A stretch of 64,000 bases of DNA from Verrucomicrobia bacterium UBA2281 (GTDB lineage Bacteria > Verrucomicrobiota > Kiritimatiellia > CAIQIC01 > Lenti-01): assembly GCA_002347655.1 (NCBI GenBank), contig DDWR01000024.1, positions 59,685 through 123,684 of the forward strand, written 5' to 3'. This document shows, one piece after another, positions 17,380 to 56,712 of the stretch; position 1 is the stretch's first letter; every line of letters begins with the position of its first letter. The translations under genes and the position numbers were made by a program. The notes beneath the pieces are model-generated. The model saw only the letters and a program-made list of their open reading frames with translations. It was not told where the DNA came from and ran no database searches.

Positions 17380-17470
17380 GGTTATTGGGCGTTGGATATT
17401 GGTCATTGAAGCCCGACGGCTTTCGATCTCAATTTCCAATAACCCATATTCAATATCCAATCATCAAGTG
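17380..17470. repeat. MITE-like AT-rich inverted-repeat element, copy A
   Basis: ggttattgggcgttggatattggtcattgaagcc ... aatttccaataacccatattcaatatccaatcatcaagtgaac; arms contain TTGGATATTGG / CCAATATCCAA and a cttgaac/ttcaagtgaac terminus. Confidence 0.55.
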
Positions 17471-17562
17471 AACCGCCCTCTCGACAAATGTTAAATTATC
17501 ATTTGCCGCCATTCCCGGCTTGATTTTCAATCAATTCTATACATGATGCATGGCGTGATTTT

Positions 17563-17604
17563 CAGACGCCAGACGCCAGACGCCAGACGCCAGACGCCAG
17601 ACGC
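17563..17604. repeat. heptanucleotide microsatellite (CAGACGC)x6
   Basis: Six perfect tandem 7-bp units ending about 25 nt upstream of the ATG at 17629. Confidence 0.8.
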
Positions 17605-17747
17605 TTCGGCGCTGGTGGATTCCTGCTGATGCCAAGCATCTGACGGTTATCCTGTTTCTGCTGGCAAAACCGTTCTCCGCCAGCGCCGATGAAGTCACCG
17701 TTGCGTTTTCCCCGCGCGGCGAGGCGCTCAATCTGGTCCTGAACGAG

Positions 17748-19448
17748 TTGCGCGCCGCCACCGGTCGCGTGGATCTCGCCCAGTTCTACGTCACCCACCC
17801 CGACTTGATCGATGCGCTGTGTGCATTGCCGGCCAAAGGCATCCAAGTGCGCCTGCTGACGGACGTCACCATGGGCGAGGCGGCCCAGCAACCCACTTTG
17901 GACAAGCTGACTCGCCACGGCGTGCTGCTCTACTTGATCGAACCGCCCAAGCGCGGCAAGATGCACATGAAGTGCCTCGTGGTGGACGCCAAAACCGTCG
18001 TCGCAGGCACCGCCAACTGGACCCAGCAGGCTTTCGATCTGAATTTCGAGGACACCCTCAAAATCGCCTCGCCCGCGCTGGCTGCGGTCTATTTGGCCAA
18101 GATGGATGAATTGACGTCCTCCGACATGGCCTCCGAAGTCCATGGCTCCGGCGCGAAGCCCGCGCGCCTGAATTTCCCCCTTCCCAAGCCACCGGTCGTT
18201 CGTACGCCTCCCGGCCGGGTGAACGCACCCGGGGGCCGAAAATTCACGGTGCCGGCTCCCGAGAGCTTTTTCCTGCCCAATCCCGAACCGTTCGACCGCT
18301 TGGCCGCGCAAATCCGTTCCGCCACCAGCCGCATCGACGTCGCCATCTTCCTCTTGAACGAGGACCGGATCGTTTCCGCTTTGACCGAACGCGCCAAAGC
18401 CCGAGGTTGCGCCATCCGGATTCTGGCCGACGTCGGCATGCTGGGCTCGGGCAATCTGGAAGTCCTCCAAAACCTGGCGACCGCCGGCGTCGAAATCCGC
18501 ACGTTCGGTTCGGACCGCGAAAACCTGCATATGAAAACCGGCGTCATCGACGGCCATTTCTTCTGGACGGGTTCCGCCAACTGGACCAAAGGGGCCATGT
18601 CCTTGAACGTGGAAGATATGCTCTGTTTCGATGCTCCCGAACTGGCCGCCTGGTACGGCAAATGGATGGATGGATTCGCCAAAGTCTGCCAGCCGTTTGC
18701 TCCGCTTCAGGCGCAAACGGCGTCCAACGCGACCCATCCGGCGCCCGCCGGAAAATGGCCGGTCGGCCTTCCGTCCACGGCACCCCGCGCCGATTGGGAT
18801 CATCTGGTGGAACACGTGGATTTTCCGCCGTTGGAAACCAACGCCTGGACCGCCTACCTGCCGGACGAGGCCTATGCTCCCGTGCTGCTCGACCTGATCC
18901 GCAAAGCCCACCAAACCATCTTGATCGCTATGTACAAGGTCGCCGAATCGGGCGAAAAAGCCGCGGCGGGTTTCCATGGGCAAATAGTCTCCGAACTGGA
19001 AAAAGCCGCCGCCCGAGGCGTATATGTGAGCCTTTTGCTCCACGTGCCCGTGTCGCCGCAAGACGCCCTGTACGACGCCCATTCCCATTGGGCCGAGCGT
19101 TTGCGCGCCAAAGGCATCGACGTCCGCCTGAGCCTCCCCACCCTGCCCATGCACGAGAAATTCGTGTCGGTGGACCTGTGCAAGGTCCTTGTCGGTTCGC
19201 ACAACTGGTCGGAAGGCGCCCTCGATGGCTCCCGCGTCTACGAGTCCAGCGCCCTCGTCGTCTACCCGCAGCAGCAAAAATGGCTGGCCGACTACTTCTT
19301 CAGCCGCCCCTCGGTCAGCGACATGTCCAGCCGCGAGGCCTGGGAACGCGAACTCACCCTCATCCGCCATGCCAAGAACATGGATGATAATCTTGAAAAA
19401 TACCAATTCCTCGAATCGCTCGGCGTGGAAACGGAGGCCACCCCGTGA
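17748..19448 (+). CDS. phospholipase D-family protein with three HKD motifs (probably secreted; true start likely the ATG near 17629)
   Basis: HKD motifs HMKCLVVDAKTVVAGTANWT, HMKTGVIDGHFFWTGSANWT and HEKFVSVDLCKVLVGSHNWS. An upstream ATG at ~17629 plus a signal peptide (ILTVILFLLAKPFSASA|DEV) is in frame in my reading of the displayed bases. The track instead starts at TTG 17748 and shows the ATG frame as MPSI*, a 1-nt discrepancy near 17640. Confidence 0.75.
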   Translation: MRAATGRVDLAQFYVTHPDLIDALCALPAKGIQVRLLTDVTMGEAAQQPTLDKLTRHGVLLYLIEPPKRGKMHMKCLVVDAKTVVAGTANWTQQAFDLNFEDTLKIASPALAAVYLAKMDELTSSDMASEVHGSGAKPARLNFPLPKPPVVRTPPGRVNAPGGRKFTVPAPESFFLPNPEPFDRLAAQIRSATSRIDVAIFLLNEDRIVSALTERAKARGCAIRILADVGMLGSGNLEVLQNLATAGVEIRTFGSDRENLHMKTGVIDGHFFWTGSANWTKGAMSLNVEDMLCFDAPELAAWYGKWMDGFAKVCQPFAPLQAQTASNATHPAPAGKWPVGLPSTAPRADWDHLVEHVDFPPLETNAWTAYLPDEAYAPVLLDLIRKAHQTILIAMYKVAESGEKAAAGFHGQIVSELEKAAARGVYVSLLLHVPVSPQDALYDAHSHWAERLRAKGIDVRLSLPTLPMHEKFVSVDLCKVLVGSHNWSEGALDGSRVYESSALVVYPQQQKWLADYFFSRPSVSDMSSREAWERELTLIRHAKNMDDNLEKYQFLESLGVETEATP

Positions 19449-19527
19449 GTACCGCCATGGCCCATGTTCGGAAAGGTAGGGCGGTCTCGCCGAGACCGCC
19501 GCGCTCCTCCGTGTCGTCCGGGCTGTT

Positions 19528-19600
19528 CGATCCAATTGGTCATTGGATATTGGGCGTTGGACATTGGATGTTGAGATTTCTCCAGCCTGTAGCCCGGCGC
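19528..19600. repeat. MITE-like element, copy B
   Basis: caattggtcattggatattgggcgttggacattggatgttgag; same TTGGATATTGG-containing unit as copy A, again immediately upstream of a PLD gene. Confidence 0.5.
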
Positions 19601-19675
19601 GTTGAGCCGGGCGGATTTCGATCCCACCGGGTCAACGCCCTGGCCTACAGCCGATCCCCATCCGTTCTGAGCACT

Positions 19676-20422
19676 TTGGGCGTGCTCCTTCTTCTATGCC
19701 CCGCCGTTCGAGCCGACGAAATTTCCCTCCGCGATGGCACCAGCCTGACCGGCCGGGTCCTCATGGTTCAATCCGGCGGCTACGTGTTCCAGGACGGCGC
19801 CCCCCGCGGAACGATGCAAAACATCCCCAAGGCCGCCGTTCGATATGCCCTCTACGACGATCCCGCGCAGGCCGACCGCGTCCTCGGAATCCGCAGTGCG
19901 CTGCGTCACGCCGAAGGGGAGGCCAGTTTTGTCCGCCTCCTCCCCACCCGCCCTTTCGGCCAAGCCATCCTCGAAGCCGTCCAAAACGCGCATGCCTCCA
20001 TTTGGGTCAGCGCCTACTATATTTCCGGAAGCTCCACGAGCCCTATCAAGGATTTCTACGCCGCCCTGGCCGAGAAGGCACAACAAGGGCTCGACGTGGT
20101 CGTCGTCAGCGAATACGGCCCCGGCACCAGCGCCCGCGTGCGCGAAGCCACCTACAACTTCGCCCGCGAACTGGAGCAATCCGGCATCCGCGTCCTGTTC
20201 ATGAGCGGCTACCGCATCCTGCACAAGAAGATGATCCTGGTGGACAGCCAAATCGCCCTGCTCGGCAGCGCCAACCTCACCATGGCCGGCACCCTCCAAA
20301 GCGACGAAATGAACGTCGAGATCCGCCAACCCGCCTATGTAGCCAGAATGCGTAAGGATTTTGAAAAGATCATGGCGTCCGCCCTAACGGCGGATGCTGC
20401 CAATGCAAAGGAGATAAAGTGA
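19676..20422 (+). CDS. secreted single-HKD phospholipase D/Nuc-like protein
   Basis: HKD motif HKKMILVDSQIALLGSANLT. A likely TTG/GTG start at 19676/19682 gives the signal peptide MGVLLLLCPAVRA|DEI. The track ORF starts at 19445, but that N-terminus is read through the MITE. The stop overlaps the next gene's GTG (GTGA). Confidence 0.65.
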   Translation: MGVLLLLCPAVRADEISLRDGTSLTGRVLMVQSGGYVFQDGAPRGTMQNIPKAAVRYALYDDPAQADRVLGIRSALRHAEGEASFVRLLPTRPFGQAILEAVQNAHASIWVSAYYISGSSTSPIKDFYAALAEKAQQGLDVVVVSEYGPGTSARVREATYNFARELEQSGIRVLFMSGYRILHKKMILVDSQIALLGSANLTMAGTLQSDEMNVEIRQPAYVARMRKDFEKIMASALTADAANAKEIK

Positions 20423-21075
20423 AATACAGAAATCACACCGGCCTTTGGACCAGCTCAGTCTGGCTCGCGGGGCTATTGCTTATAGGGCTTGTTTTGCCTG
20501 CTCGGCCCGCCGGAAAATCCCCCGGAGATTGCAAGGTTGAGGAATGTCAAGAATGGGATGAATACGAACACGATTGCGTTGATATGCCAAAAAATTGTGT
20601 TATTTTGGCGTGGTTTGGAGAAGACCGCGATGATGGAGATTGCAATCAGGGAATCACCTACAACACCAGGGATGTCCCGATATGCGGGACAAAAACTAAA
20701 ACCATCAAATATCAAGAGCACAAAAGCTGGTGTAAAGGTCACTACGCCTATGAACACGATTCAAGGAATGTTATATATACATGGATAATTACAACATGCC
20801 GTCCCCGATATGTAGGCCCTTCAATCGCTGATGACATTAAAAATGCCGCAGGGCTAGCTGCTTCCTGCCTTGAGGTGCTGCTGCAATTAGTTGCAGCAAC
20901 CCAAGGGGCGGGCAACTATCCAGATGCGTCTAATGTCGCAAGTTGTCTTGAGAGTCTTGCCAATTATTATAATTATGATGTTTCTACTTACTACTCCGGT
21001 TGCGAGGTGGCTGACATCCAATGGCAGGGGGCGGTTTTTAAATGCACCTTGTTGGGCGAAGGATGCGGCGAGTAA
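20419..21075 (+). CDS. hypothetical Cys-rich secreted protein (low-GC insert)
   Basis: GTG start with AAGGAG RBS 7 nt upstream; N-terminal TM/signal (LWTSSVWLAGLLLIGLVLPA); 16 Cys in 218 aa; local GC about 45% against about 68% for the flanks. Confidence 0.6.
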   Translation: MKYRNHTGLWTSSVWLAGLLLIGLVLPARPAGKSPGDCKVEECQEWDEYEHDCVDMPKNCVILAWFGEDRDDGDCNQGITYNTRDVPICGTKTKTIKYQEHKSWCKGHYAYEHDSRNVIYTWIITTCRPRYVGPSIADDIKNAAGLAASCLEVLLQLVAATQGAGNYPDASNVASCLESLANYYNYDVSTYYSGCEVADIQWQGAVFKCTLLGEGCGE

Positions 21076-21098
21076 TGTTTTTTACGAGGGATATATAA

Positions 21099-22109
21099 AT
21101 GAATAGATTCGATAAGTTGATGATTTGTATTGGGATGGCCGGGGTTCTACTCCTGAAAGGGTTCGCATACGGACAAGCACCCTCCCGGCAGGAGTATGTC
21201 CAAGCACTATTCAACCCAATTGCATTTCCAGCACAACATGTTCTTCACATGGACATCCAGAAGGAAAAGGCGGTTCAAGTCGTCGCGGATGGCGCCCTAC
21301 TTAATGAGCGTATTCGCGAATGTTATGAGTCGAGCGAAAGAATTCGGAGCGAATTTTCAACTCTGGAGGCATATGCGGCCGAGGTGAGGACGACTCAGTC
21401 CAATCAATTCCAGAAAACCAGCCAACGCATCACGACCTCCACGCAGTGCCAGCATCTTCGGGAATACGGAACCGACGGCGATCATGTGTCCAAGGAGGTC
21501 ATTCAATACCGCGTTGACGGGCAAAACTGGCAGACGCTCCAGATCGACCACGACCGACTTACTGCCTCCTTGCAGAAAGGAGCGAAAGGCATTTTCACCG
21601 ATTATCGAGAGACGGGCATGTTTAATAGCATGGACCAGTTACTGCTGATTATATTTTTCCGAATCCTGCCGAACATGAGCCAAGACGCCGCGGTCGATGC
21701 GTTGTGTAGCGGCGAAACCCTGTCGGCAGGCACCAAGTCAATGAAGCTGGAATCCCGGGAGGATGCCGATCCAGCCCATCTTCTTTTGACCTATCAAGAC
21801 GCGGTGGAGTCTTCGTCTATCGAATTCCAACTGGACCCTAAGAAGATCGGCGTGCTGATAAGCAAGAAATCCGCAATGCCTCAAGCTACCTCCCTGTGGG
21901 CTTTCACCCGGGATGCAACAATTCAAAATATCAGCTCTGCCTATCCGCGAAAAACCGTATTTACAAGGTTAGATACTGCCGGTCGCCTGCAGGAAAGAGA
22001 ATCGGTTACTTTAGAAGATATTTCGGAGGCGGCAGATTGGAATGTCCGACAGCTTTGGGCCGATAAAATGGACGAAATTAAAGTTTATCAAGTGTCGGTG
22101 CAGCCGTAG
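21099..22109 (+). CDS. hypothetical secreted protein (low-GC insert)
   Basis: ATG with GAGGG RBS; N-terminal hydrophobic segment MICIGMAGVLLL; 336 aa; no recognisable family; AT-rich codon usage unlike the neighbours. Confidence 0.6.
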   Translation: MNRFDKLMICIGMAGVLLLKGFAYGQAPSRQEYVQALFNPIAFPAQHVLHMDIQKEKAVQVVADGALLNERIRECYESSERIRSEFSTLEAYAAEVRTTQSNQFQKTSQRITTSTQCQHLREYGTDGDHVSKEVIQYRVDGQNWQTLQIDHDRLTASLQKGAKGIFTDYRETGMFNSMDQLLLIIFFRILPNMSQDAAVDALCSGETLSAGTKSMKLESREDADPAHLLLTYQDAVESSSIEFQLDPKKIGVLISKKSAMPQATSLWAFTRDATIQNISSAYPRKTVFTRLDTAGRLQERESVTLEDISEAADWNVRQLWADKMDEIKVYQVSVQP

Positions 22110-22131
22110 TTTGTCCTGATAATTGTCTATG

Positions 22132-22160
22132 GGCCGCCTCTATGAGGCGGCCGTTTTTTA
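22132..22160 (+). terminator. intrinsic terminator closing the low-GC insert
   Basis: GGCCGCCTC-TATG-GAGGCGGCC followed by TTTTTT. Confidence 0.75.
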
Positions 22161-22261
22161 TCTCTCTGGGCAAACAGACCTTTGGATTCTAATTTAATGT
22201 TTTCATACGGAGGTATTAGCATGGTATTTGTAGTCACCTAGCCAGTCCAAGGATATTTTTC

Positions 22262-23134: not shown

Positions 23135-23149
23135 CGAATGGTTTTCCGG

Positions 23150-29820: not shown

Positions 29821-29853
29821 GAGTCAGGGTTCAGAGTTCAGGGTTCAGGCAAG

Positions 29854-30312
29854 ATGGGCGAGTTTCGGAAATTGGAGGATCTGATCGTCTACCAGAAGCT
29901 CTGCCAGCTCCATATCGAGATCTCGGGCATATCCCATCGCTGGCCGGCCGAGGAAAAATTCGAGTTGGGAGCGCAAATCCGGCGTTCCTCGAACAGCGCG
30001 GCCGCCCAGTTGGCCGAAAAGTACGATGATCGCCATATTCGCAACAAAATCGAGGGGATCAACCGCAGCCGCGGCGAGGCCGCAGAGTCCGTCCATCATC
30101 TGTTCATGGCCCATTTGAAAAGATACGAAACCCTTGAAACGTACGAATCATACCGTTTGCGCTATCAGGAATGCATCCGTATGCTGAACGGCATGGAACG
30201 AACTTTGGGAAAACAGCTTCCCGAAGCCGCTCGCCGCTGGCCGGCCGTGCAGGAGCAACCCGGCGATTACAGCGCCGTCGGCTTTCCGGACCCCTCTTCA
30301 ACTGAACCCTGA
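29854..30312 (+). CDS. four-helix-bundle protein (23S rRNA intervening-sequence protein family)
   Basis: 152 aa, MGEFRKLEDLIVYQKLCQLHIEISGISHRWPAEEKFELGAQIRRSSNSAAAQLAE..., typical of this family. The gene is flanked by inverted blocks of GGGTTCAG repeats at 29821-29853 and 30296-30340. Confidence 0.75.
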   Translation: MGEFRKLEDLIVYQKLCQLHIEISGISHRWPAEEKFELGAQIRRSSNSAAAQLAEKYDDRHIRNKIEGINRSRGEAAESVHHLFMAHLKRYETLETYESYRLRYQECIRMLNGMERTLGKQLPEAARRWPAVQEQPGDYSAVGFPDPSSTEP

Positions 30313-30358
30313 ACCCCGAACCCTGACCCCTATTGAAAAAAAGAAAGGACCCTCCAAA

Positions 30359-31210: not shown

Positions 31211-31319
31211 CCAGAGTTCAGAGGTCAGGGTTCAGGGAAGACGGGCCGGGATCGAATCCCGAACCCCGAACCCTGAACCCTTTTGCTTTCCCCCCTGAAC
31301 TCCGAACCCTGAACCCTTT
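31211..31319. terminator. bidirectional REP-like hairpin cluster between the cyclase (+) and recR (-) genes
   Basis: agggttcagggaag...cccgaaccccgaaccctgaaccc inverted GGGTTCAG units form long stems followed by T-runs (cttttgctttcc / ccttttcacg). Confidence 0.5.
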
Positions 31320-43759: not shown

Positions 43760-43830
43760 GGAATTTAATTAATTACATATAGTGACGCCATGTATTGCAA
43801 TACATGAATTCATATATTGTAATTAATGAA
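43760..43830. promoter_or_regulatory. AT-rich nested palindromic region (candidate promoter/operator of the UDG-like gene)
   Basis: Perfect 16-bp palindrome ATGTATTGCAATACAT (43790-43805) nested inside the imperfect inverted repeat TAATTAATTACATATA / TATATTGTAATTAATGA; about 30% GC in a 68% GC genome; immediately upstream (minus sense) of 43118..43720. Confidence 0.5.
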
Positions 43831-46247: not shown

Positions 46248-46249
46248 CG

Positions 46250-46849: not shown

Positions 46850-47562
46850 TCCTCGCCCGCCCCGCCTTCGCCCAGGACTCCTCCCCGGCTTCAGATCCCC
46901 TCTCTCCGGCTTCGGACCTCGGATCTCGGACCTCGGACTTCGCCCCTCCTCCCGTCTACCCCGTCGGCTCCGAGCCCCAGCCCGAGCCCTCGCCCGTCCG
47001 CTGGGAAGGCCAGACCGCCCTCCTCGGCGCCGTGCGGCTCGATTCCGCCACCAAGACCGTGACCGCCACCGGCTGGGTCAACCAGACCGCCGGGGCCATC
47101 GAAGTCCTCGCCTGCGGCCTCGCCGGCAAGGTCCATGAATCCGTCTTCGTCCTGCCCGTCAACGCCCTCGATCTGCAGGCCGCGCTGCTGCTTGCCGGCC
47201 TCAAGGGCGGCGAACCCATGCCCGCCATCGGCCAAGGACCGCCCAAGGGCTCGCCCGTGGATATTTTCGTCGATTGGCAGGCCGACGGCGAGCCCAAGAC
47301 CGCCCGCGCCGAGTCGTTCGTGTGGAACGTCGAAGAAAACGCCGTTTTGCCCGACGCCCCCTGGACCTTCACCGGCTCCATGATCAAGGAGGGGCAGTTC
47401 AAGGCCTTCGCCGAAGAATCCTTCGTCGTCACCTACTGGGATCCCTACGCCATCGTCAATCTTTCCCACCCCGCCGGATCCAACGACGAACTCCTCGTCG
47501 TCAACACCAACGTCGTCCCCGCAGTCAAAACCCCCGTCGCCCTCCGCTTCATCCCGCGCTAG
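46810..47562 (+). CDS. hypothetical secreted protein
   Basis: ATG at 46810 (MHRRLVRLLALGLILARPAFAQDSSPASD...), signal peptide, Pro-rich linker, conserved-looking core TGWVNQTAGAIEVLACG; inside spurious track ORF 46261..47562. Confidence 0.55.
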   Translation: MHRRLVRLLALGLILARPAFAQDSSPASDPLSPASDLGSRTSDFAPPPVYPVGSEPQPEPSPVRWEGQTALLGAVRLDSATKTVTATGWVNQTAGAIEVLACGLAGKVHESVFVLPVNALDLQAALLLAGLKGGEPMPAIGQGPPKGSPVDIFVDWQADGEPKTARAESFVWNVEENAVLPDAPWTFTGSMIKEGQFKAFAEESFVVTYWDPYAIVNLSHPAGSNDELLVVNTNVVPAVKTPVALRFIPR

Positions 47563-49602: not shown

Positions 49603-49654
49603 CCCGCGCCGATGCTCTCCGCTTCGTCCCGCCTTAATCCTGCCCCGGCCCAAA

Positions 49655-49700
49655 CTTGAACCTTGGACATTGATTATTGGATATTGGATATTCCGCCCCC
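49655..49700. repeat. MITE-like element, half-copy C
   Basis: cttgaaccttggacattgattattggatattggatattccgccccc equals one arm of the element at 56566-56712 including the ttccgccccc terminus. Confidence 0.5.
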
Positions 49701-50322: not shown

Positions 50323-50330
50323 CGCCGCGC

Positions 50331-51206
50331 TCAGCCGTAGGCCAGGACGACCGGATTGCGCAGCGTGCCGATGCCGTCGATTTCGCACTCGACCACGTCG
50401 CCGTCGTGCAGCACCACGGGCGGCTTGCGCGCGGACCCGATGCCCCCCGGCGTGCCCATGGAGATCACGTCGCCCGGCTCCAGCGTCAGCACCCGGCTCA
50501 GGTCCGCCAGCACCATGTCGATGCGGAAGATCATCTGGGCGGTCTTGGATTCCTGGAGGATCTCGCCGTTGACGCGCTGGCGGATGCCCAAGGCGTGCGG
50601 CCGCTTGATTTCGTCGCGCGTGACGAGCCACGGGCCCATCGGCCCGAACGAGTCCGCGCTCTTGGCGAAGAACCACTGCAGGCGCGCCTTCTGGAGGTCG
50701 CGGTTGGTCACGTCGTTGAGCACCGCGTAGCCGGCGACGTGGGCCAGGGCCTCGCCTTCGTGGATATCGCGCGCGCGCTTGCCGATCACGACGGCCAGTT
50801 CGGCCTCGCCGTCCACGCGTTCCATGCCGGGCTTGAGCCGGATGGGATCGTGCGGGCCGCTCAGGGAGCCGGGGCTCTTGGAAAAATAGACGGGAAATTC
50901 GGGCACCTTGGCGTCGAATTCCTTGGCGTGGTCGCGGTAGTTCTTGCCCAGGCAGATGATCTGCCGCGGCGGCGCCACCGGCGGTCCCAGGCGGACGCCC
51001 TCGGCCGGGATCGTCTTGAGGTTCGGCTCTTTGAGCAGGGCCTGCAGGCGCTCGACGCCGTGCGCGGCCCAGAAGCGCGCGTCGTAGTCGGCGATGTCGA
51101 AGACCATGCCGCGCACGTCCAAGATCCGCGCAGGCTCCTTTTTCGTCGCGTCCAGCCAGATGCCCGGCCGTTCGGCGCCGGGCGCGCCGTATCTCACCAG
51201 TTTCAT
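50331..51206 (-). CDS. fumarylacetoacetate hydrolase (FAH) family protein
   Basis: Start ATG at 51206 (MKLVRYGAPGAERPGIWLD...), FAH fold motifs; 291 aa. Confidence 0.85.
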   Translation of the reverse strand: MKLVRYGAPGAERPGIWLDATKKEPARILDVRGMVFDIADYDARFWAAHGVERLQALLKEPNLKTIPAEGVRLGPPVAPPRQIICLGKNYRDHAKEFDAKVPEFPVYFSKSPGSLSGPHDPIRLKPGMERVDGEAELAVVIGKRARDIHEGEALAHVAGYAVLNDVTNRDLQKARLQWFFAKSADSFGPMGPWLVTRDEIKRPHALGIRQRVNGEILQESKTAQMIFRIDMVLADLSRVLTLEPGDVISMGTPGGIGSARKPPVVLHDGDVVECEIDGIGTLRNPVVLAYG

Positions 51207-52174
51207 CGGCACCCCTTCTTTCGGGCCGGTTGCGCATATGGGCCGAGAAAACGACTGCCATTCAAATGAATCAGGTGGTCGGGATGCTCCGCAACCCACA
51301 CCTCGGTTTCCCATGCCAATTCATTCCAGTATTTGGACATAATGGCGCGGGACGGAAACGCCGTGACGAAAACCAATCCCGCCATGGACTTTCCAAACAA
51401 CCTTTTCAACTCCTCGTGCCGCTTGGGATTCACCGGCCCATGACTGGTGACTACCTCGATCAACACCAGCCATTTTCGCCTTCCGTCATGCACGACCACG
51501 TCCGGCATCTTTCCGTGTTCATCGAGTTGGATGCCGAGCGTGCCGAAGCCCTTTTCATCCCGAAAAGCCCACTTTTTACCCGTGTCGCCGACATACAGCA
51601 AGTTGCCCCCCGGAACAAACCGAGAAGCAAATTGCTCCACCACCGCACGAATCAACAGGCTGTGCGCCCCTGGGGTCAAATGCAGAATGCGATTGCCCGC
51701 CATGCGAACCGGAACGCGCTTCAAATCGCGAATGTGCGCATAGCGATCCGCCAAAGTGCTTCTCTGCGCCCCGGAGGTCGCCACCATTTCCGTCCAGTTT
51801 TTCGATTTCCGCGCTCTCAGCAACCGCAACGCTTCAGGCGCGATTTTATAAACCGTTTTCGGACTGTTCACGGGCCGGGCGGGATTGTCCGGATTCGGCA
51901 AGACGAGTCCGGCCTGCACCAATTGATGAACAGAAAAACGCCGGAACGTTTCGCGTGTATTGGGCGCATATTGAACCCCGTAGCGATCACGCGCGAAGTC
52001 CATCATGGGCGTAATGCCAACCAGCGGCTCTGCAGCATCACACCACTTCTTGTCCGGATCGAGATCCAAGAGCGCCAACAAGCATAGCGCCGTTCGGTCG
52101 TTTTGCTGTTCTCGCGGCATTCCCATTGCCCGCAGGACCTGAACCGCCTCGCGGATTCTCGACTTAGCGTTCAT
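51203..52174 (-). CDS. type II restriction endonuclease, BsuBI/PstI family
   Basis: 323 aa; family-typical blocks (GNLLYVGDTGKKWAFRDEKGFGTLGIQLDEHGKMPDVVVHDGRRKWLVLIEVVTSHGPV); overlaps the upstream methyltransferase by 11 nt and the downstream FAH by 4 nt; lower GC (about 55%). Confidence 0.75.
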   Translation of the reverse strand: MNAKSRIREAVQVLRAMGMPREQQNDRTALCLLALLDLDPDKKWCDAAEPLVGITPMMDFARDRYGVQYAPNTRETFRRFSVHQLVQAGLVLPNPDNPARPVNSPKTVYKIAPEALRLLRARKSKNWTEMVATSGAQRSTLADRYAHIRDLKRVPVRMAGNRILHLTPGAHSLLIRAVVEQFASRFVPGGNLLYVGDTGKKWAFRDEKGFGTLGIQLDEHGKMPDVVVHDGRRKWLVLIEVVTSHGPVNPKRHEELKRLFGKSMAGLVFVTAFPSRAIMSKYWNELAWETEVWVAEHPDHLIHLNGSRFLGPYAQPARKKGCR

Positions 52175-53663
52175 TCAATTTCTCCACCAGCGAATCAATG
52201 CGCTCTTGGCTATATCGCCGGACTTTGGCCATCTTTTTCCCCAAGCCCGTCAATTGCCGGACGGATGGATAGGGCAATTTCCTTAAATCCGTCGCGTTGA
52301 CTTGGGTATGGCCGTTGAAGGCCCGGAAATAACGATCGACCGGCGTGGAATTCAAATATGCGCACAGGCCCCGCGCCAAGTCTTCATCTAAACCGTTTTT
52401 CGCGGTGTGGAACACGTTCAAATGATTTTCGAAGCCGACCCGTGCATATTCCGGCATGGCGGCGCGTGCAACGACGCTGGCCACGATCCGCCGCGACTCT
52501 TCCTTGGATGAAAGGCGGCGCGTCACGACATAGCACCCGGCCGGATACAACCAGCGGCGTGTTTCCGGAACGTCCATAATGGCGCACTTCTTTTTAGTCG
52601 AGCCCAAAGGCCAGCGCATTTTCCCGTCGGCGAAATGGCAGGGATAGACCAGTGGCACGGAGTTGCCGGCCGCCTGATCCAACAGGAATTCTCGAAGACG
52701 GAAATCCACGACCGGACCGGTGGAAACCTGAAGCCCCAGTTCATTCAGGTCGTGAGCGAAGGGCAACGTTGCTGCAACCGCATCGGCTGCCTGCGGAATC
52801 CGAATGAATTTCTCCGCATCGCCAGCATTCACGACGGAATCGAAAGGCAAAAACCGGATTTCGCAATCACCGGATGAATCATCCCGGCTGACGCTGATGC
52901 CCACCGGTCCCTGTCGGCCGCCGCGAACCAGTTTGATGATGACGTTTTCCTGTAGCACCCCGTCCGCCTTGAACGCCGCCGTACGGGACTCGAACAGGTG
53001 GATGCGTTCAATGGCCGCATTCCTTAAGACCATCTCGCGGAACGGCCGATAATAGGGCCCATTGCAAAAGCTGCGGGGCACGATGGCCACCAGTTGGCCG
53101 CCGGGCTTGAGGAGCTGCAACGCCACGGCAACGAATCCCGAATACAGGTTCACCGTCTCGATCCCCAAATCCCGCAGCCATTTCCGATGCGGGGAATCGC
53201 TGGCGATTTTCTTATAGGGGGGGTTCAAAATTGCGTGGGTGTAGGTGCCTGGATTCCCGAACTCGAAGGGACTGGCCACGGCCTGGATGAAATCACAAGG
53301 CTGAATGGCCACCTCCAACTTCCCACCTTGCCGCTCCACGTCCAAAGCGCAGCGACGTAGGAATGGACGCAAATATTCCTGCATGCCGGGATCCACCTCG
53401 TATGCCGTTAAAAACAACGGCATCCGCAGATCCGTTTTCTCGCTCCACGCCCGGATGAAAGCTCCGGAAAGCGCACCTTGCCCAGCACCGGCATCCAGCA
53501 CAAAGGTGGCATTGTCGCCCTTGAAGTCGAACAGCGAAGCCATGAAATCGGCAATCTCCAACGGCGTCATGATCTGGCCCAGTTCGGCCCTTTTCCCCGC
53601 ACGGGCGTCGAGTTCGACTGCTTGGGGACGTCGGGATTTTCGCTTGGACAAAATACCGATCAT
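52164..53663 (-). CDS. N6-adenine DNA methyltransferase (M.PstI/M.BsuBI-like)
   Basis: FxGxG SAM motif FVLDAGAGQGAL, catalytic NPPY (AILNPPYKKI); 499 aa; paired with the BsuBI/PstI-family endonuclease. Confidence 0.8.
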   Translation of the reverse strand: MIGILSKRKSRRPQAVELDARAGKRAELGQIMTPLEIADFMASLFDFKGDNATFVLDAGAGQGALSGAFIRAWSEKTDLRMPLFLTAYEVDPGMQEYLRPFLRRCALDVERQGGKLEVAIQPCDFIQAVASPFEFGNPGTYTHAILNPPYKKIASDSPHRKWLRDLGIETVNLYSGFVAVALQLLKPGGQLVAIVPRSFCNGPYYRPFREMVLRNAAIERIHLFESRTAAFKADGVLQENVIIKLVRGGRQGPVGISVSRDDSSGDCEIRFLPFDSVVNAGDAEKFIRIPQAADAVAATLPFAHDLNELGLQVSTGPVVDFRLREFLLDQAAGNSVPLVYPCHFADGKMRWPLGSTKKKCAIMDVPETRRWLYPAGCYVVTRRLSSKEESRRIVASVVARAAMPEYARVGFENHLNVFHTAKNGLDEDLARGLCAYLNSTPVDRYFRAFNGHTQVNATDLRKLPYPSVRQLTGLGKKMAKVRRYSQERIDSLVEKLNER

Positions 53664-53669
53664 ATCCGC

Positions 53670-54668
53670 TTATGCCTTTGCCGGTCTCCGGGGCACGAAC
53701 GCCTTGCGTTCCGGCGCGGCGGGCAGGTTTTCGCTCGCGCGCGATTTGCCGAGCGGGCCGAGCACGTCGTCGGTCGTCTTGAAGTGGCACTTGGCCACGT
53801 CGAGAAACGCGGCACCGCCGTGTTTCTTGGCGATTTCGCCGGCCACCTGCTTGACCTTGTCGGATGCGCCCTTGGGCAGCTTGACGCCGTATTTCTCGCC
53901 CAGCTTGTCCATCGCCGTCAGGAAACCCGACCGCGCGAGAATCGAGGCCGCGGCCACGGCAACGTCGCTTTCCGCCTTGTGGCGCTGCTCGAGCTTGATC
54001 TTCCGCCCCTTCTGCTGCAGGGCGCGCTGGATCTGCTGCTCGGGGCCGAACTGGTCGCTCAGGGCGCGGGGACAGGTCGGCACTTTTTCGAGCAGGTTTT
54101 CGATGGCGCGGGCATGGCCCCACGCCAGAATGCGGTTCACGCTGCCCATCGTGGCGTAGAGCCGGTTGTAGGCCGCCGGGCCGATGGACACCACGACGAA
54201 CTTGTCGCCCAGCCGCGTCCGGATCTTCTTGGCCAGGTCCTGCGCCGCCTTGTCGGTCGTGATGGTCTTGCTGTCGCGCACGTTCAGCGCCTTGAGATCC
54301 TTGGCGATGGTTTCGTCGACGTAGGCCGCCGCGATGACCAGCGGGCCGAAGAAATCGCCCTTGCCGCTTTCGTCCACGCCCATGTGCGGGGCGTTGGCTT
54401 CGGGGTTGAGCACGTCCTCGTAGCCCAGGCGGGCCTCGCCCAGCACCTGCGGCTCGAGCACGAACGTCACCCAGTCCGCCGCGCCCTTGCCCTGCACCAG
54501 GCACTTGCCGCTTTGGTAGAGCACGATCTGGCAGTCTTCGCCCTCCGCCGCCGCGAGGGCGTACTCCACGCGCCGGGGCCGGTAGTTGCCCTCCCGCAGG
54601 ATCCGCGCCGCCGCGTCCATCTGGTCCGGCGTCAGCTTGATCGTGTACGAATTCTTCTTGTCCGTCAT
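53670..54668 (-). CDS. rnhC: ribonuclease HIII
   Basis: Start ATG at 54668 (MTDKKNSYTIKLTPDQMDAAARIL...), N-terminal TBP-like domain, then RNase HII/HIII catalytic GVDESGKGDFFGPLVIAAAYV; track ORF extends to 54770. Confidence 0.85.
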   Translation of the reverse strand: MTDKKNSYTIKLTPDQMDAAARILREGNYRPRRVEYALAAAEGEDCQIVLYQSGKCLVQGKGAADWVTFVLEPQVLGEARLGYEDVLNPEANAPHMGVDESGKGDFFGPLVIAAAYVDETIAKDLKALNVRDSKTITTDKAAQDLAKKIRTRLGDKFVVVSIGPAAYNRLYATMGSVNRILAWGHARAIENLLEKVPTCPRALSDQFGPEQQIQRALQQKGRKIKLEQRHKAESDVAVAAASILARSGFLTAMDKLGEKYGVKLPKGASDKVKQVAGEIAKKHGGAAFLDVAKCHFKTTDDVLGPLGKSRASENLPAAPERKAFVPRRPAKA

Positions 54669-54800
54669 GGTTCGGACCCTAGCAGACCCCACCCCCGCTG
54701 GCAACCGCCCGACCATTGACTTTCCCCTTTTCGCGGCATAGATTCCGGGCGTGAAAACCGCGGTGGACAACTCCGTCCCCGCCGTTTATGGAGACCGTTC

Positions 54801-55103: not shown

Positions 55104-55111
55104 GCCCGCCC

Positions 55112-56323
55112 ATGTGCTGCCCCCGCCACTCGTTCCTGCGCCGGCAGGGCGGCTGGCTCGGGCTCCTGCCGCTGCTGGCGCTGGCCGCCGGCTGCGCCAC
55201 GCCCGGCCGGCCCGGCGCCGAACGCTGGGCCTTGAAACGTCTGCCCGAAGTGCCGGCGGATTCGGCGCGCGCCGACCGCGCCATCGTCGCCGCCTTTTTC
55301 GCCGCCAACGGCGCGCGGCTCGACGCCCAGCAACTCGAGAAGATCCTGCCCCCGGCCGCGCGGCCCGCCCAGATGGACCGCAACGCCCTGCGCGCCGCGG
55401 CCCGTGCCAACCATCGCGTGCTGGCGGTCGTGAAGGCCGACGAGGCGGAGTTGGCCAAGTGGCTCGCCGGCAATCGGCCCTTGCTGGTGCTGCTGCCGCC
55501 GGGACTGCGCTACGAGCCCAACGCCGCCGCCTTCGTGCCCGTCGCCTGGGACCGGGCGAAAGGCACCGTGGACCTGCTCGACGGCAACGGGGAAATCCAG
55601 ACCTTGCCCGAGGCGGAATTCTTCGCGCGCCGCGAACCGCTCAAGCACGCCGCGCTGTGCCTGCTCAAGCCCGGCGCCCTGGAGCGCATGCAGCCCACGC
55701 GCGACCAGAAACTCGTGCTGGCGGATTTCTGGTTCGACCAGGGCTTCTACCGCCGCGCCCAGGCCGCCTATTCCGCCATCCAGGAAGAAGCCCCGCTGGG
55801 CACCACCGACGTGGACGCGCTCGTCGGCCAAGGCAACGTCCTCGTCCGCAAGAAGCGCTACAAGGAAGCGATTCCGGTTTTCCGCGCCGCCCTCGCTCTC
55901 GAACCGGACAATCCCCGGATCCTCAACAACCTCGCCTACTGCATGCTTCACGGCGGCGGCGAGTTGATGACCGCGCTGCGCCACGCCGCCAAGGCCGACC
56001 GGCTCGATCCCGAAAATCCGCTCGTCCTCGAAACGCTCGGCAGCATCAATCTCCGGATCGGCGACGCCCCCGCCGCCGCGCGCTATCTCGAACGGGCCTG
56101 GGCCCGCGCGCTCAAGCGCTCGCCGGAAATCCAGATCGCCATCATGGACCAGCTGGTCCGAGCCTGGATCGGCGCCCAGCGGCGCGATCTGGCCTGGCAG
56201 GTCGCCGAATACCGGCAGCGCGCCTTCCCCGAATACCGGTTCCCCAAGGACATTCTCCGCACCTTTCCCGCTCTCCGCCAACCCGTTAATCCCCTGCCCG
56301 AAAACCGGTCCGGGGCCAGATGA
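55112..56323 (+). CDS. TPR-repeat lipoprotein
   Basis: ATG at 55112 (MCCPRHSFLRRQGGWLGLLPLLALAAGC lipobox), multiple TPR units (FYRRAQAAYSAI..., YKEAIPVFRAALALEPDN...); 403 aa; the track shows this frame only inside the longer ORF 54788..56323. Confidence 0.7.
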   Translation: MCCPRHSFLRRQGGWLGLLPLLALAAGCATPGRPGAERWALKRLPEVPADSARADRAIVAAFFAANGARLDAQQLEKILPPAARPAQMDRNALRAAARANHRVLAVVKADEAELAKWLAGNRPLLVLLPPGLRYEPNAAAFVPVAWDRAKGTVDLLDGNGEIQTLPEAEFFARREPLKHAALCLLKPGALERMQPTRDQKLVLADFWFDQGFYRRAQAAYSAIQEEAPLGTTDVDALVGQGNVLVRKKRYKEAIPVFRAALALEPDNPRILNNLAYCMLHGGGELMTALRHAAKADRLDPENPLVLETLGSINLRIGDAPAAARYLERAWARALKRSPEIQIAIMDQLVRAWIGAQRRDLAWQVAEYRQRAFPEYRFPKDILRTFPALRQPVNPLPENRSGAR

Positions 56324-56342
56324 AAATATTCCGCCCCAAGGG

Positions 56343-56371
56343 TTGACACCCCCCCCTCCGTCCCGTATAGT
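56343..56371 (+). promoter_or_regulatory. consensus sigma70 promoter TTGACA-17-TATAGT
   Basis: TTGACA 56343-56348, 17-nt spacer, TATAGT 56366-56371; shares CCCCCCTCCGT...TATAGTC with the rpsO promoter; no ORF follows. Confidence 0.55.
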
Positions 56372-56377
56372 CGTTGG

Positions 56378-56552
56378 ACAAATCGGGGATTCGTTGATTT
56401 CCCGCCGTTCTTTTTTAAATCCATTTTAGCGACTTGCTGCTAACCACGCAGCAAGCAGATGGGACTACGGAGACCCCCCCATACTCCGCCCGTCTGCACT
56501 CATCCGTGCCAGGCTACCCCCCCCGATAACGCCTGGCACGGACCTTTTTTTG
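56378..56552 (+). ncRNA. candidate small RNA (about 175 nt) of unknown class
   Basis: Bounded by the consensus promoter and a strong intrinsic terminator (CCGTGCCAGGC-loop-GCCTGGCACGG + ACC + TTTTTTTT at 56504-56552); internal hairpin CTTGCTGC-TAACCAC-GCAGCAAG; no convincing ORF. Confidence 0.45.
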
Positions 56553-56565
56553 CCCATGCGAGATC

Positions 56566-56712
56566 AATCTTCAATAACCAATGTCCAATATCCAATGTTC
56601 AAGTGAACAGCCGGGGATGCCGGATTGGTTTCATTGGACACGGACAATCGCCTCGATCAACAACCGACCCGGGCTGTTCACTTGGAAATTGAACATTGAA
56701 TATTGGATATTG
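56566..56712. repeat. MITE-like element, full copy D (about 147 bp, terminal inverted repeats)
   Basis: Left arm caataaccaatgtccaatatccaatgttcaagtgaacagcc, right arm ggctgttcacttggaaattgaacattgaatattggatattgaatatt; GC-rich core between arms; no coding capacity. Confidence 0.6.

What the first reader, a model, noticed from the sequence alone, without database searches (positions are those of the whole stretch)
17380..56712. Family of AT-rich MITE-like inverted-repeat elements built on TTGGATATTGG / cttgaac...gttcaag
Four copies or fragments share roughly 45-bp arms: CACTTGAAC-ATTGGATATTGG-ACATTGG-TTATTG. They occur as inverted pairs around a short core.
- 17380-17470 (copy A).
- 19528-19600 (copy B).
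- 49655-49700, a half copy that includes the ttccgccccc terminus.
- 56566-56712, a full copy of about 147 bp.
They are non-coding and far more AT-rich than the genome. Two sit directly upstream of the PLD genes and one follows the candidate sRNA terminator. This is the signature of a miniature inverted-repeat transposable element family, or a dispersed protein-binding array, that may supply promoters.
Basis: seen in the sequence. Interest (0 to 1): 0.55.

Follow-up and report, generated by a model that had tools for sequence, protein, structure and literature searches.

The report
Capped heptad-repeat intergenic element family
Six copies of a ~52-bp AT-rich element (a GGCTGTTCAC cap followed by six TTGRAYA heptads) sit between genes of this GC-rich, Kiritimatiellia-like genome; they belong to a high-copy repeat family that stays at the same positions in related species, resembles REP elements more than a MITE, and has no demonstrated function.

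Summary
A position-weight matrix trained only on non-window copies finds exactly six "arms" at the four reported sites (51-85 bits; best shuffled score -18).

The arms are not generic inverted repeats. Each is a fixed ~52-nt unit: cap ccGGCTGTTCAC, then six phased heptads TTGRAYA with position-specific variants.

- **Distribution:** the same unit occurs about once per 10-12 kb in related metagenome-assembled genomes (MAGs). A truncated scan gave 4-10 strict matches per MAG.
- **Location:** always intergenic and close to gene ends, in either orientation.
- **Pairs:** about 40% of arms lie in inverted pairs, cap-to-cap at 13 of 14 independent positions.
- **Conservation:** sites A, B, C and D are at orthologous positions in sister species. 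Other arms precede trpD, deoA, deoB and a rumA-like gene in several genomes.

I found no target-site duplication, no transposase and no sigma-70-like promoter inside the arms. The two arms of a pair are barely more alike than random arms. MITE and promoter readings are therefore not supported.

The best reading is a host-maintained, REP-like element whose 7-nt phasing suggests side-by-side binding of about six protomers of a nucleic-acid-binding protein. Whether it acts on DNA or RNA is unresolved. The closest precedents are cyanobacterial STRR, Beggiatoaceae TAACTGA and Geobacter heptamer arrays, all of unknown function.

The parts
17361..17412 (+). Arm A-left. Six heptads, TTGAACG TTGGTTA TTGGGCG TTGGATA TTGGTCA TTGAAGC. 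It has no canonical cap, and the first heptad contains the TGA stop of the GHL10-like gene.
   Evidence: PWM 51.6 bits. Sequence. Present in L103 and L112, shortened by 14 nt in L124, absent in L107.
17413..17425 (.). Short spacer between the two arms of site A (CCGACGGCTTTCG). With the end of A-left it forms a small GC stem-loop.
   Evidence: Fold of 17362-17480: -36.1 kcal/mol, z = -3.57.
17426..17477 (-). Arm A-right. Cap GGCGGTTCAC, then TTGATGA TTGGATA TTGAATA TGGGTTA TTGGAAA TTGAGAT.
   Evidence: PWM 77.0 bits. Conserved in all five syntenic species. In the L107 alignment only 5 of 52 positions differ, while third codon positions are 61.5% identical.
19526..19577 (+). Arm B, single. The cap is interrupted (GGCTGTTCG-ATCCAA). 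Heptads: TTGGTCA TTGGATA TTGGGCG TTGGACA TTGGATG TTGAGAT. It lies 87 nt after the PLD stop.
   Evidence: PWM 56.6 bits. Orthologous copy in L124.
49646..49697 (+). Arm C, single. Five heptads, TTGAACC TTGGACA TTGATTA TTGGATA TTGGATA, then TTCCGCCCCC. It lies between the convergent YcxB-like (+) and TrmB-like (-) genes.
   Evidence: PWM 56.7 bits. Gene calls. The ortholog in L143 is 38/44 identical, while the adjacent spacer is poorly alignable.
56561..56612 (-). Arm D-left. Cap GGCTGTTCAC, then TTGAACA TTGGATA TTGGACA TTGGTTA TTGAAGA TTGATCT. It starts a few nt (about 9) after the terminator of a conserved sRNA candidate.
   Evidence: PWM 85.4 bits. 51/52 identical in L143.
56613..56671 (.). 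Non-repetitive core between the two caps of site D.
   Evidence: Visibly less conserved against L143 than the flanking arms, with several indels. Cores at other cap-to-cap pairs vary from 7 to 111 nt.
56672..56723 (+). Arm D-right. Cap GGCTGTTCAC, then TTGGAAA TTGAACA TTGAATA TTGGATA TTGAATA, then TTCCGCCCCC. Its tail faces the stop of the convergent NTP-transferase-like gene (56751).
   Evidence: PWM 83.6 bits. 47/54 identical in L143. Its changes (TTGAACA to TTGGGCG) are not compensated in D-left.

Best explanation
**What is shown.** Each arm is one copy of a defined ~52-nt intergenic element: a conserved cap (cc)GGCTGTTCAC followed by six phased 7-nt units TTGRAYA. The consensus is TTGAAcA TTGGATA TTGAAyA TTGGATA TTGGATA TTGAgaT. 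The arm is the unit; 'full copies' are two arms placed next to each other, almost always cap-to-cap. The family is high-copy (about one arm per 10-12 kb) in a narrow clade of uncultured Kiritimatiellia-like bacteria and is retained at the same intergenic positions across species. It behaves like a host-maintained, REP-like element, not like a transposon.

**Most likely mechanism (inferred, not shown).** The arm is a docking platform. About six protomers of one nucleic-acid-binding protein with a 7-nt footprint line up on it, nucleated at the cap, in the untranslated spacers at gene boundaries. The phasing fits one cold-shock/OB-fold domain per heptad on single-stranded RNA. It equally fits ribbon-helix-helix-type dimers on contiguous 7-bp repeats of duplex DNA.

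**Possible consequence (speculative).** The unit is strongly strand-asymmetric: the TTGRAYA strand has almost no C, and the complement has almost no G. Transcribed in sense, it would give an unstructured, C-free spacer in front of the next cistron. Transcribed in antisense, it would give a C-rich, G-free tract directly after a stop codon.
For: **Architecture**
- Information content shows a sharp inner boundary at the cap. TTG is retained at 0.94-0.98 in heptad 5 and 0.93/0.90/0.68 in heptad 6 (these heptads were not constrained by the search pattern), and is lost in heptad 7.
- Heptad variants are position-specific. Heptad 1 is never TTGGATA among its eight commonest variants, while heptads 2 and 5 mostly are.
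- This is not what slippage-generated simple repeats look like.

**Copy number**
- At least 106 loci in a truncated genome scan, with 4-10 strict matches per MAG.
- 45 extra arms in 552 kb of fetched loci, and 6 in the 64-kb window.

**Position conservation**
- Sites A-D are present in syntenic species.
- Arms lie upstream of trpD (6 genomes), deoA (4), a rumA-like gene (4), deoB (3) and a 157-aa gene (6).

**Constraint**
- A-right is about 90% identical in L107, where third codon positions are 61.5% identical.
Indels are multiples of 7.

**The arm, not the hairpin, is the unit**
- The two arms of a pair are 0.79 identical, against 0.76 for random arms.
- Changes between orthologs are uncompensated.

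**Non-random pair geometry**
- 13 cap-to-cap against 1 tail-to-tail independent positions, p = 0.002.

**Footprint**
- Cold-shock domains bind one heptanucleotide per protein (PMC1904285; PMC4679880).
Against: - No binding protein is identified. Regex searches for cold-shock-domain (CSD), CsrA and Hfq motifs in the window and loci found nothing.
- Bacillus CspB binds the ATTGG core only weakly (PMC1904285).
- At short evolutionary distance, arms are no better conserved than third codon positions: 0.72-0.92 against 0.85-0.88. Constraint therefore rests mainly on one distant comparison and on retention of the pattern.
- Similarity among copies could also come from concerted evolution.
- Orientation relative to genes is only weakly biased once orthologous positions are collapsed: 14 against 6 groups, p = 0.12, and 24 against 11, p = 0.04. 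RNA-level action is therefore not demonstrated.
- The proposed downstream effects on translation or termination are untested inference.
Confidence: 0.4

Rival explanations
1. Selfish, non-autonomous mobile element (MITE or REPIN-like) that spreads through intergenic DNA, with arms as terminal repeats.
For: - Many dispersed, near-identical ~52-nt copies with the same order of variant heptads.
- About 40% of arms are in inverted pairs.
- One arm (A-left) is present or absent among species.
- Many arms lie within a few hundred nt of contig ends in the fetched loci, as expected if the repeats break assemblies.
- In a Victivallales MAG, a ~200-nt repeat unit containing a palindromic array pair recurs at several loci.
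Against: - No target-site duplication at pairs or at the A-left indel.
- No transposase seen in the annotated parts of the window or near arms.
- The outer ends are the least conserved part and the inner cap the most conserved, the opposite of transposon termini.
- Most arms are single.
- Sites A-D and many others sit at orthologous positions across species.
Confidence: 0.2
2. RNA hairpin elements. Paired arms fold into long stem-loops in transcripts and act as 3'-end stabilisers, processing sites or terminators, as REP elements do. Single arms would be decayed halves.
For: - Sites A and D fold well below shuffles: z = -3.57 and -4.82, with 0 of 200 shuffles as stable.
- At W 12501-12578 the window has a 25-bp-stem hairpin plus T-run where relative L103 has a cap-to-cap arm pair.
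- GC-rich heptad arrays of a second family (GGTTCAG) form a hairpin followed by a T-run between the convergent cyclase and recR genes at 31212-31317.
Against: - Arms of a pair are hardly more complementary than random arms: 0.79 against 0.76.
- Changes in D-right are not compensated in D-left.
- No T-run follows sites A or D, and no terminator is called there.
- About 60% of arms are single yet equally well conserved.
- A hairpin model does not explain the 13:1 cap-to-cap bias.
Confidence: 0.15
3. Promoter or UP-like modules. Overlapping TTGAAC/TTGGAT (-35-like) and GATATT (-10-like) hexamers 18 nt apart would drive transcription toward the tail.
For: - Many arms point at a start codon 3-60 nt away, for example trpD at +28, deoA at +12 to +19 and rumA-like at +4 to +24.
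- They are the most AT-rich spots in a GC-rich genome.
Against: - The consensus scan finds no promoter in the arms. By my reading of the consensus the best hexamer pairs reach only about 8 of 12 matches with an 18-nt spacer. The same genome has a TTGACA-17-TATAGT promoter at 56343-56371.
- 30 of 68 single arms with a called downstream gene face the stop codon of a convergent gene, and sites C and D do so in the window.
- Pairs sit in co-directional or convergent regions, not divergent ones.
- Arms are no commoner in divergent regions than in other intergenic regions: 4/27 against 43/177.
- Arms lie inside operons such as trp and deo.
Confidence: 0.08
4. Functionless simple-sequence repeats made by replication slippage of a heptamer (STRR/LSSR-like), tolerated only outside genes.
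For: - Period 7 is the commonest class of long simple repeats in bacteria, as cited in PMC4679880.
- The window has other period-7 arrays, including a perfect CAGACGC x6 that has 9 copies in a relative.
- A-left lost exactly two heptads in L124.
Against: - Unit number is fixed at 5-6.
- Units differ and occur in a recurring, position-specific order.
- A non-repeat cap is part of the element.
- Copy number is otherwise stable between species.
Confidence: 0.07
5. LexA operators. The cap plus first heptad, TGTTCACTTGAACA, equals the Verrucomicrobia LexA box TGTTC-N4-GAACA.
For: - The motif is experimentally defined in Verrucomicrobium spinosum (PMC4951493).
- D-left carries a perfect match, as do 22 of 84 canonical arms.
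Against: - 62 of 84 canonical arms lack the palindrome because heptad 1 is often TTGATGA, TTGAAGA or TTGATCA.
- Five of the six window arms lack it.
- The adjacent genes are housekeeping, not SOS genes.
- Hundreds of sites per genome would titrate a repressor.
Confidence: 0.03

Closest known systems
REP / BIME / REPIN elements of Proteobacteria
   Same: - Short (tens of bp), extragenic and high-copy.
- Occur singly or as inverted doublets.
- Lie in intercistronic and 3' regions, in both orientations.
- Positions are often conserved between related genomes.
- Thought to be bound by host proteins and to affect mRNA ends (established knowledge, from memory).
   Different: - A REP is itself an imperfect palindrome. 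An arm is not palindromic but a phased array of six heptads with a non-repeat cap.
- No RAYT transposase link could be examined.
- Pair geometry is almost exclusively cap-to-cap.
Cyanobacterial STRR and other heptanucleotide long simple repeats
   Same: - 7-nt period, intergenic.
- Several heptamer families in one genome (here TTGGATA, GGTTCAG, CAGACGC and TCGGACC).
- One STRR unit, TTGGTCA (from memory), also occurs here as a heptad.
- Function unknown.
   Different: - STRR/LSSR arrays are runs of identical units with variable copy number.
- These arms have a fixed 5-6 units, position-specific variants and a cap.
TAACTGA direct repeats of marine Beggiatoaceae, cyanobacteria and Bacteroidetes (MacGregor 2015, PMC4679880)
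   Same: - Heptamer arrays of 2-6 units at hundreds of intergenic sites.
- Many lie a few nt upstream of start codons of unrelated housekeeping genes.
- S1, Csp and CsrA-type binders have been proposed.
   Different: - Different unit sequence.
- TAACTGA sets are almost all direct and forward-oriented, with one indirect repeat reported.
- Here about 40% of arms are in inverted pairs, and many arms abut stop codons in antisense.
- A conserved cap is present here.
Geobacter metallireducens multicopy heptanucleotide elements: GGACCGG x4 (49 sites) and MTYCTGA x5 (PMC2700814)
   Same: - Fixed small number (4-5) of tandem heptamers at dozens of sites.
- Annotated as putative global regulator sites or regulatory RNA elements.
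- Some are drawn as strand-switching pairs.
   Different: - Different sequences and phylum.
- Some Geobacter copies lie inside genes.
- No cap is described.
- Their function is also untested.
Operator/centromere arrays of ribbon-helix-helix proteins, e.g. omega of pSM19035, which binds contiguous 7-bp heptads in direct and inverted orientation (from memory, not checked here)
   Same: Contiguous 7-bp units, 6-10 per site, in direct and inverted arrangements; cooperative side-by-side binding.
   Different: - Those are a few plasmid sites with a known binder.
- Here there are probably a few hundred chromosomal sites per genome (extrapolated from one arm per 10-12 kb; genome size not known), an unrelated unit sequence and no known binder.

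Membership tests
MITE | Terminal inverted repeats that define the element ends | tested here: not met
   Only sites A and D (and about 40% of arms overall) are in inverted pairs. B and C are single. The outer ends are the least conserved part and the inner cap the most conserved.
MITE | Target-site duplication flanking the element | tested here: not met
   No direct repeat flanks site A, site D or the A-left indel between the window and L107. Alignments, checked by eye because the outer boundaries are fuzzy.
MITE | Insertion polymorphism between close relatives | tested here: not met
   A-right, B, C, D-left and D-right are all present at orthologous sites in species 78-92% identical. Only A-left varies. 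One further sense arm upstream of the thyX-like gene was lost together with an island insertion.
MITE | Related autonomous IS with matching termini | tested here: inconclusive
   No transposase among the annotated window genes or next to arms in the loci. Whole genomes could not be searched, and the window was not scanned ORF by ORF.
REP/REPIN | Each unit is a short imperfect palindrome | tested here: not met
   An arm is a direct heptad array. Its sense strand has almost no C, so it cannot pair with itself.
REP/REPIN | Extragenic, high copy, singlets and inverted doublets | tested here: met
REP/REPIN | Cognate RAYT (Y1 transposase) gene flanked by the repeats | not testable with these tools
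   This needs complete genomes of the clade.
STRR / heptanucleotide simple repeats | Tandem repeat with a 7-nt period | tested here: met
   TRF and the period scan detect period 7 at all sites.
STRR / heptanucleotide simple repeats | Identical units with variable copy number | tested here: not met
   Fixed 5-6 units with position-specific variants. Length is stable between species except for one 14-nt deletion.
TAACTGA-type start-codon-proximal heptamer repeats | Forward orientation immediately upstream of start codons at most sites | tested here: not met
   38 of 68 single arms with a called downstream gene have a co-directional gene downstream. 30 face a convergent stop codon.
Sigma-70 promoter | -35/-10 hexamers at 16-18 nt, matching at least 9 of 12 positions | tested here: not met
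   0 sites in 17200-19800. The only site in 56200-56900 lies outside the arms.
Verrucomicrobia LexA operator (TGTTC-N4-GAACA) | Perfect or near-perfect 14-bp dyad | tested here: not met
   22 of 84 canonical arms and 1 of 6 window arms have it.
Any Rfam RNA family | Match at the gathering score | tested here: not met
   The only window hit is the SRP RNA. Permissive searches over sites A, B and D gave only sub-threshold matches to animal miRNA hairpin models.

The most novel reading that the evidence does not exclude
The arms are a previously undescribed gene-boundary punctuation system. In this reading, a capped array of exactly six 7-nt units is read by a hexameric or filament-forming nucleic-acid-binding protein. 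The extreme strand asymmetry makes the effect depend on orientation. Transcribed in sense, the C-free, unstructured RNA would favour ribosome loading on the next cistron and resist Rho. Transcribed in antisense, the G-free tract with YC every 7 nt would sit directly after a stop codon and act as an entry site for Rho or another factor. The same logic might then explain the long-unexplained heptamer arrays of cyanobacteria, Beggiatoaceae and Geobacter.
Probability: 0.12. Interest if true: 0.75.

Novelty: new variant of a known kind. Interest (0 to 1): 0.45.

Why it matters
Dispersed heptanucleotide arrays have been catalogued in cyanobacteria, Beggiatoaceae, Bacteroidetes and Geobacter for decades without a mechanism. 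This family has features that make the question testable:

- a sharp cap;
- a fixed number of six phased units;
- a strict cap-to-cap pairing rule;
- conserved positions in front of, and behind, ordinary housekeeping genes.

Together these give a defined 52-nt probe for pull-downs and reporter assays.

Practically, the arms probably break assemblies: many lie close to contig ends in the fetched loci. They also lie next to genomic-island insertion points. They should therefore be masked, or modelled, when annotating genomes of this clade.

Tried and rejected
- **Promoter scan around A, B and D:** nothing inside arms.
- **Rfam at gathering and permissive thresholds:** no family.
- **Target-site duplications and a parent IS:** none seen.
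- **LexA-box reading of cap plus heptad 1:** present in only 26% of canonical arms.
- **Selection for hairpin complementarity:** pair arms 0.79 identical against 0.76 for random arms, partly driven by a separate Victivallales subfamily.
- **Orientation bias relative to genes:**
  - It looked strong with raw counts: upstream gene co-directional 43 against 15, and sense 22 against antisense 5, p = 0.0015.
  - It shrank after collapsing orthologous positions into 40 groups: 14 against 6, p = 0.12, and 24 against 11, p = 0.04.
- **Depletion from divergent (promoter) regions:** not significant with whole-locus gene calls, 4/27 against 43/177.
- **'Phylum-spanning' distribution:** rejected.
  - The MAGs carry labels from Kiritimatiellia to Spartobacteria and Lentisphaerae.
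  - In the one gene compared across four differently labelled MAGs (deoA), codon positions 1/2/3 are 98/98/83% identical over the first 60 codons, so at least these belong to one narrow clade; the other MAGs were not compared directly.
  - Only variant arrays (TTGAGCA/TTGAACA units) occur in Victivallales, Phycisphaerae and Acidobacteriota MAGs and in some viral contigs.
- **Regex search for CSD, CsrA and Hfq genes in the window and loci:** nothing found, which is uninformative.
- **Metagenome scan:** only 23 loci, mostly bioreactor samples. The window's own sample is not in that collection, so there is no census of the source genome.
- **Literature searches for TTGGATA or heptamer repeats in PVC bacteria:** no prior description found.
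- **Caveat:** my gene calls in the fetched loci come from a crude codon-position GC method and are approximate.

Full report

Yes. The four sites read as described.

- A pattern of four consecutive TTGR-N3 units gives 13 overlapping hits, all at these sites, against none in 100 dinucleotide-preserving shuffles.
- A 52-nt position-weight matrix trained only on 125 copies from other genomes recovers exactly six arms in the 64 kb and nothing else above 10 bits. They are 17361-17412(+), 17426-17477(-), 19526-19577(+), 49646-49697(+), 56561-56612(-) and 56672-56723(+), scoring 51.6-85.4 bits. The best shuffled score was -18.
- Arm GC is 0.29-0.43 in a 0.66-GC window, the lowest 0.2-2.3% of 42-nt windows.

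Site A is two arms tail-to-tail, site D is two arms cap-to-cap around a 59-nt core (56613-56671), and B and C are single arms.

**2. Source and gene context**

The window is 100% identical to part of a 382-kb JGI metagenome contig and to a Logan contig. It is 78-92% identical at the nucleotide level to syntenic pieces of four MAGs. The closest is labelled Kiritimatiellia bacterium AMR_MDS_2896.

| Site | Position relative to genes |
|---|---|
| A | Starts inside the TGA stop of a GHL10-like gene, about 270 nt upstream of a PLD gene |
| B | 87 nt downstream of the PLD stop |
| C | Between the convergent YcxB-like and TrmB-like genes |
| D | Between a conserved sRNA candidate and the stop of a convergent nucleotidyl-transferase-like gene |

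At least C and D are therefore not in promoter positions for their neighbours.

**3. What one arm is**

Aligning 81 canonical arms gives ccGGCT GTTCAC | TTGAAcA | TTGGATA | TTGAAyA | TTGGATA | TTGGATA | TTGAgaT, followed by C/T-rich sequence.

- The fifth and sixth heptads were not part of the search pattern. They still keep TTG at 0.94-0.98 and 0.93/0.90/0.68.
- The seventh position set is random.
- Heptad variants are position-specific: the commonest heptad-1 variants do not include TTGGATA, while heptads 2 and 5 mostly are TTGGATA.

The unit is therefore a fixed ~52-nt element with a sharp inner boundary (the cap) and a fuzzy outer end. It is not a slippage-type simple repeat.

Density is about one arm per 10.7 kb in the window. 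In the fetched loci it is one extra arm per 12.3 kb beyond the arm that triggered retrieval.

**4. How wide is the family?**

The carrier MAGs are labelled Kiritimatiellia, Verrucomicrobiota, Spartobacteria, Opitutia or Lentisphaerae. In the one gene compared across four differently labelled MAGs (deoA), codon positions 1/2/3 are 98/98/83% identical over the first 60 codons. At least these MAGs therefore form one narrow clade; the remaining carriers were not compared directly.

Related but distinct arrays (units TTGAGCA/TTGAACA, often perfect palindromic pairs) occur in a Victivallales MAG, a Phycisphaerae MAG, an Acidobacteriota MAG and some viral contigs.

A stricter pattern found only 23 loci in the metagenome collection, mostly from bioreactor samples.

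**5. Mobile or fixed?**

Mostly fixed.

- A-right is present in all five syntenic species. A-left is present in three relatives, has lost exactly two heptads in L124, and is absent in L107 without any flanking duplication.
- B is conserved in L124. C and both D arms are conserved in L143.
- Elsewhere the same arm precedes trpD in six genomes (ATG at +28 to +30), deoA in four, a rumA-like gene in four, deoB in three and a 157-aa gene in six.
- The things that do come and go next to arms are other sequences:
  - a 4.8-kb island carrying the PLD gene (17481-22261), absent in L112 and L107;
  - a restriction-modification island (51206-53677), absent in L143;
  - a 64-nt palindromic element at 19587-19650, absent in L124.
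- No transposase was seen in the annotated parts of the window or near arms in the loci.

**6. Is the sequence constrained?**

- Against close relatives, arms are 0.72-0.92 identical, similar to third codon positions at 0.85-0.88. That comparison is uninformative.
- Against L107, third positions are 0.615 identical, yet A-right differs at only 5 of 52 positions.
- A sense arm upstream of the thyX-like gene persists as an array in both L112 and L107, with different heptads.

This indicates selection for the pattern, or homogenisation toward the family consensus. The data cannot separate the two.

**7. Hairpin, promoter or platform?**

*Hairpin.*
- Paired arms fold far better than shuffles: z = -3.57 for A and -4.82 for D.
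- The two arms of a pair are only 0.79 identical, against 0.76 for random arms.
- Three changes in D-right between species are not compensated in D-left.
- The complementarity is therefore a by-product of a shared consensus.
- Pair geometry is nevertheless far from random: 13 of 14 independent positions are cap-to-cap, p = 0.002.

*Promoter.*
- No sigma-70-like site is predicted in the arms, although a TTGACA-17-TATAGT promoter lies at 56343-56371.
- 30 of 68 single arms with a called downstream gene face the stop codon of a convergent gene, often within 3-20 nt.

*Orientation.*
- Bias relative to genes looked strong in raw counts: sense 22 against antisense 5.
- It falls to 14 against 6 groups (p = 0.12) once orthologous positions are collapsed. 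The upstream gene is co-directional in 24 against 11 groups, p = 0.04.
- Arms are not significantly depleted from divergent regions.

*What remains.* The element is capped and phased with a fixed number of units. The simplest reading is side-by-side binding of about six protomers of a protein with a 7-nt footprint. Cold-shock domains have that footprint on single strands (PMC1904285; discussed for TAACTGA repeats in PMC4679880). Ribbon-helix-helix repressors bind contiguous 7-bp repeats on duplex DNA (from memory). I cannot decide between DNA and RNA.

The strand asymmetry is shown: almost no C on the TTGRAYA strand. Its proposed consequences are inference only. These are a C-free spacer before a ribosome-binding site and a G-free, YC-rich tract after a stop codon. 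The latter is only partly compatible with the YC-N9-13 spacing reported for Rho (PMC6144790).

**8. Comparison with known families**

- **Behaviour** is most like REP/BIME elements.
- **Substructure** is most like cyanobacterial STRR, the TAACTGA repeats of Beggiatoaceae (PMC4679880) and the four- or five-heptamer elements of Geobacter metallireducens (PMC2700814). None of these has a known mechanism.
- **Membership tests failed** for MITE (ends, duplication, polymorphism), REP (unit not palindromic), simple repeats (fixed number, heterogeneous units) and sigma-70 promoter. They also failed for the Verrucomicrobia LexA operator (only 22 of 84 canonical arms carry TGTTC-N4-GAACA) and for any Rfam family.
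- **Literature:** full-text searches found no description of these arrays in PVC bacteria.

**9. Verdict**

This is a real, lineage-specific, high-copy intergenic element with an unusual capped six-heptad architecture. It is best classed as a new variant of REP-like or heptamer-array repeats. MITE and promoter-donor interpretations are not supported, and its function is not established. Interest is moderate (0.45). The value lies in offering a sharply defined substrate for finding out what heptamer arrays do.

Noticed in passing
window 13694-13770; 29822-29849 and 30302-30331; 31212-31317: A second heptad family, GGTTCAG/CCCTGAA, forms GC-rich inverted pairs. One pair plus a T-run fills the gap between the convergent cyclase and recR genes, like a bidirectional terminator. 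In related MAGs, such arrays often lie directly 5' of the TTGGATA-arm cap.
   Followed up: partly
window 29854-30312 (+): A 152-aa 23S_rRNA_IVP (PF05635, E = 1.2e-19; Avd-like four-helix-bundle) gene is inserted between an AllG-like gene and a cyclase gene. It is bracketed exactly by inverted GGTTCAG heptad arrays, resembling an rRNA intervening-sequence cassette. No other copy occurs in the fetched loci.
   Followed up: partly
window 17563-17604: A perfect CAGACGC x6 repeat lies between ATG codons at 17543/17546 and the PLD reading frame. Relative L124 has 9 copies. Both numbers leave the ATG out of frame with the PLD body (4, 7 or 10 copies would be needed). This could be a slipped-strand phase-variation switch, or the gene may use an unusual start codon.
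   Followed up: partly
window 17481-22261: The segment carrying the PLD gene, arm B and three low-GC ORFs without Pfam hits (GC 0.51) is absent from relatives L112 and L107, and only 17481-20392 is present in L124. It is an island inserted right next to arm A-right, and it displaced a sense arm that precedes the thyX-like gene (22262) in the relatives.
   Followed up: yes
window 51206-53677: A restriction-modification gene pair (BsuBI/PstI-type endonuclease plus Eco57I-type methylase; GC about 0.57-0.60) is absent from the syntenic relative L143.
   Followed up: partly
window 19587-19650: A 64-nt palindromic element, CTGTAGCCCGGCGCG...GGCCTACAG (30-nt arms, 80% complementary), is present here but absent from L124. 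A related copy sits upstream of arm C in L143 but not in the window. It is a better candidate for a mobile REPIN- or MITE-like element than the heptad arms.
   Followed up: partly
window 56343-56552 (+): A near-consensus promoter (TTGACA-17-TATAGT, 56343-56371) and a GC-rich hairpin with a T7 run (about 56506-56552) bracket a candidate sRNA of about 175 nt. Its 3' two-thirds (about 56430-56555) are almost identical in L143, while the 5' part is less conserved. It has no Rfam match.
   Followed up: partly
window 12501-12585: A 25-bp-stem hairpin followed by a T-run lies between two co-directional genes, with the next ATG 8 nt after the T-run. At the same position, relative L103 has a cap-to-cap pair of heptad arms whose last heptad overlaps the ATG.
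   Followed up: partly
window 43789-43830 and 59430-59470: Two other AT-rich intergenic repeats: a 22-bp unit x1.9 (CATATATTGCAATAAATGAATT; local GC 0.21) and a 21-bp unit x2 (GTTTTACGTAGAACGTAAAAT, internally palindromic). Both look like operator sites.
   Followed up: no
window 46903-46942: A further period-7 array (TCGGACC x4.4) in a very GC-rich stretch. Whether it is coding was not determined.
   Followed up: no
L003-L049 (viral contigs): About 20 related phage-like contigs (GC about 0.55) carry TTGGTTA TTGGATA TTGGTTA TTGG directly next to GCATTGCGTTC 11-mer repeats. L004 and L027 (GC 0.60-0.65) carry arrays like the bacterial ones.
   Followed up: no
L063, L104, L116, L132, L070 (Victivallales MAG CAZKRK01): Palindromic TTGAGCA/TTGAACA array pairs (7-nt gap) lie inside a ~110-210-nt unit that recurs at several loci at 80-90% identity. 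In that genome the arrays may be part of a true dispersed, possibly mobile, element.
   Followed up: partly
window 33965-34064 (-): Bacterial small SRP RNA (RF00169, 69.8 bits). It is the only Rfam family in the window.
   Followed up: no
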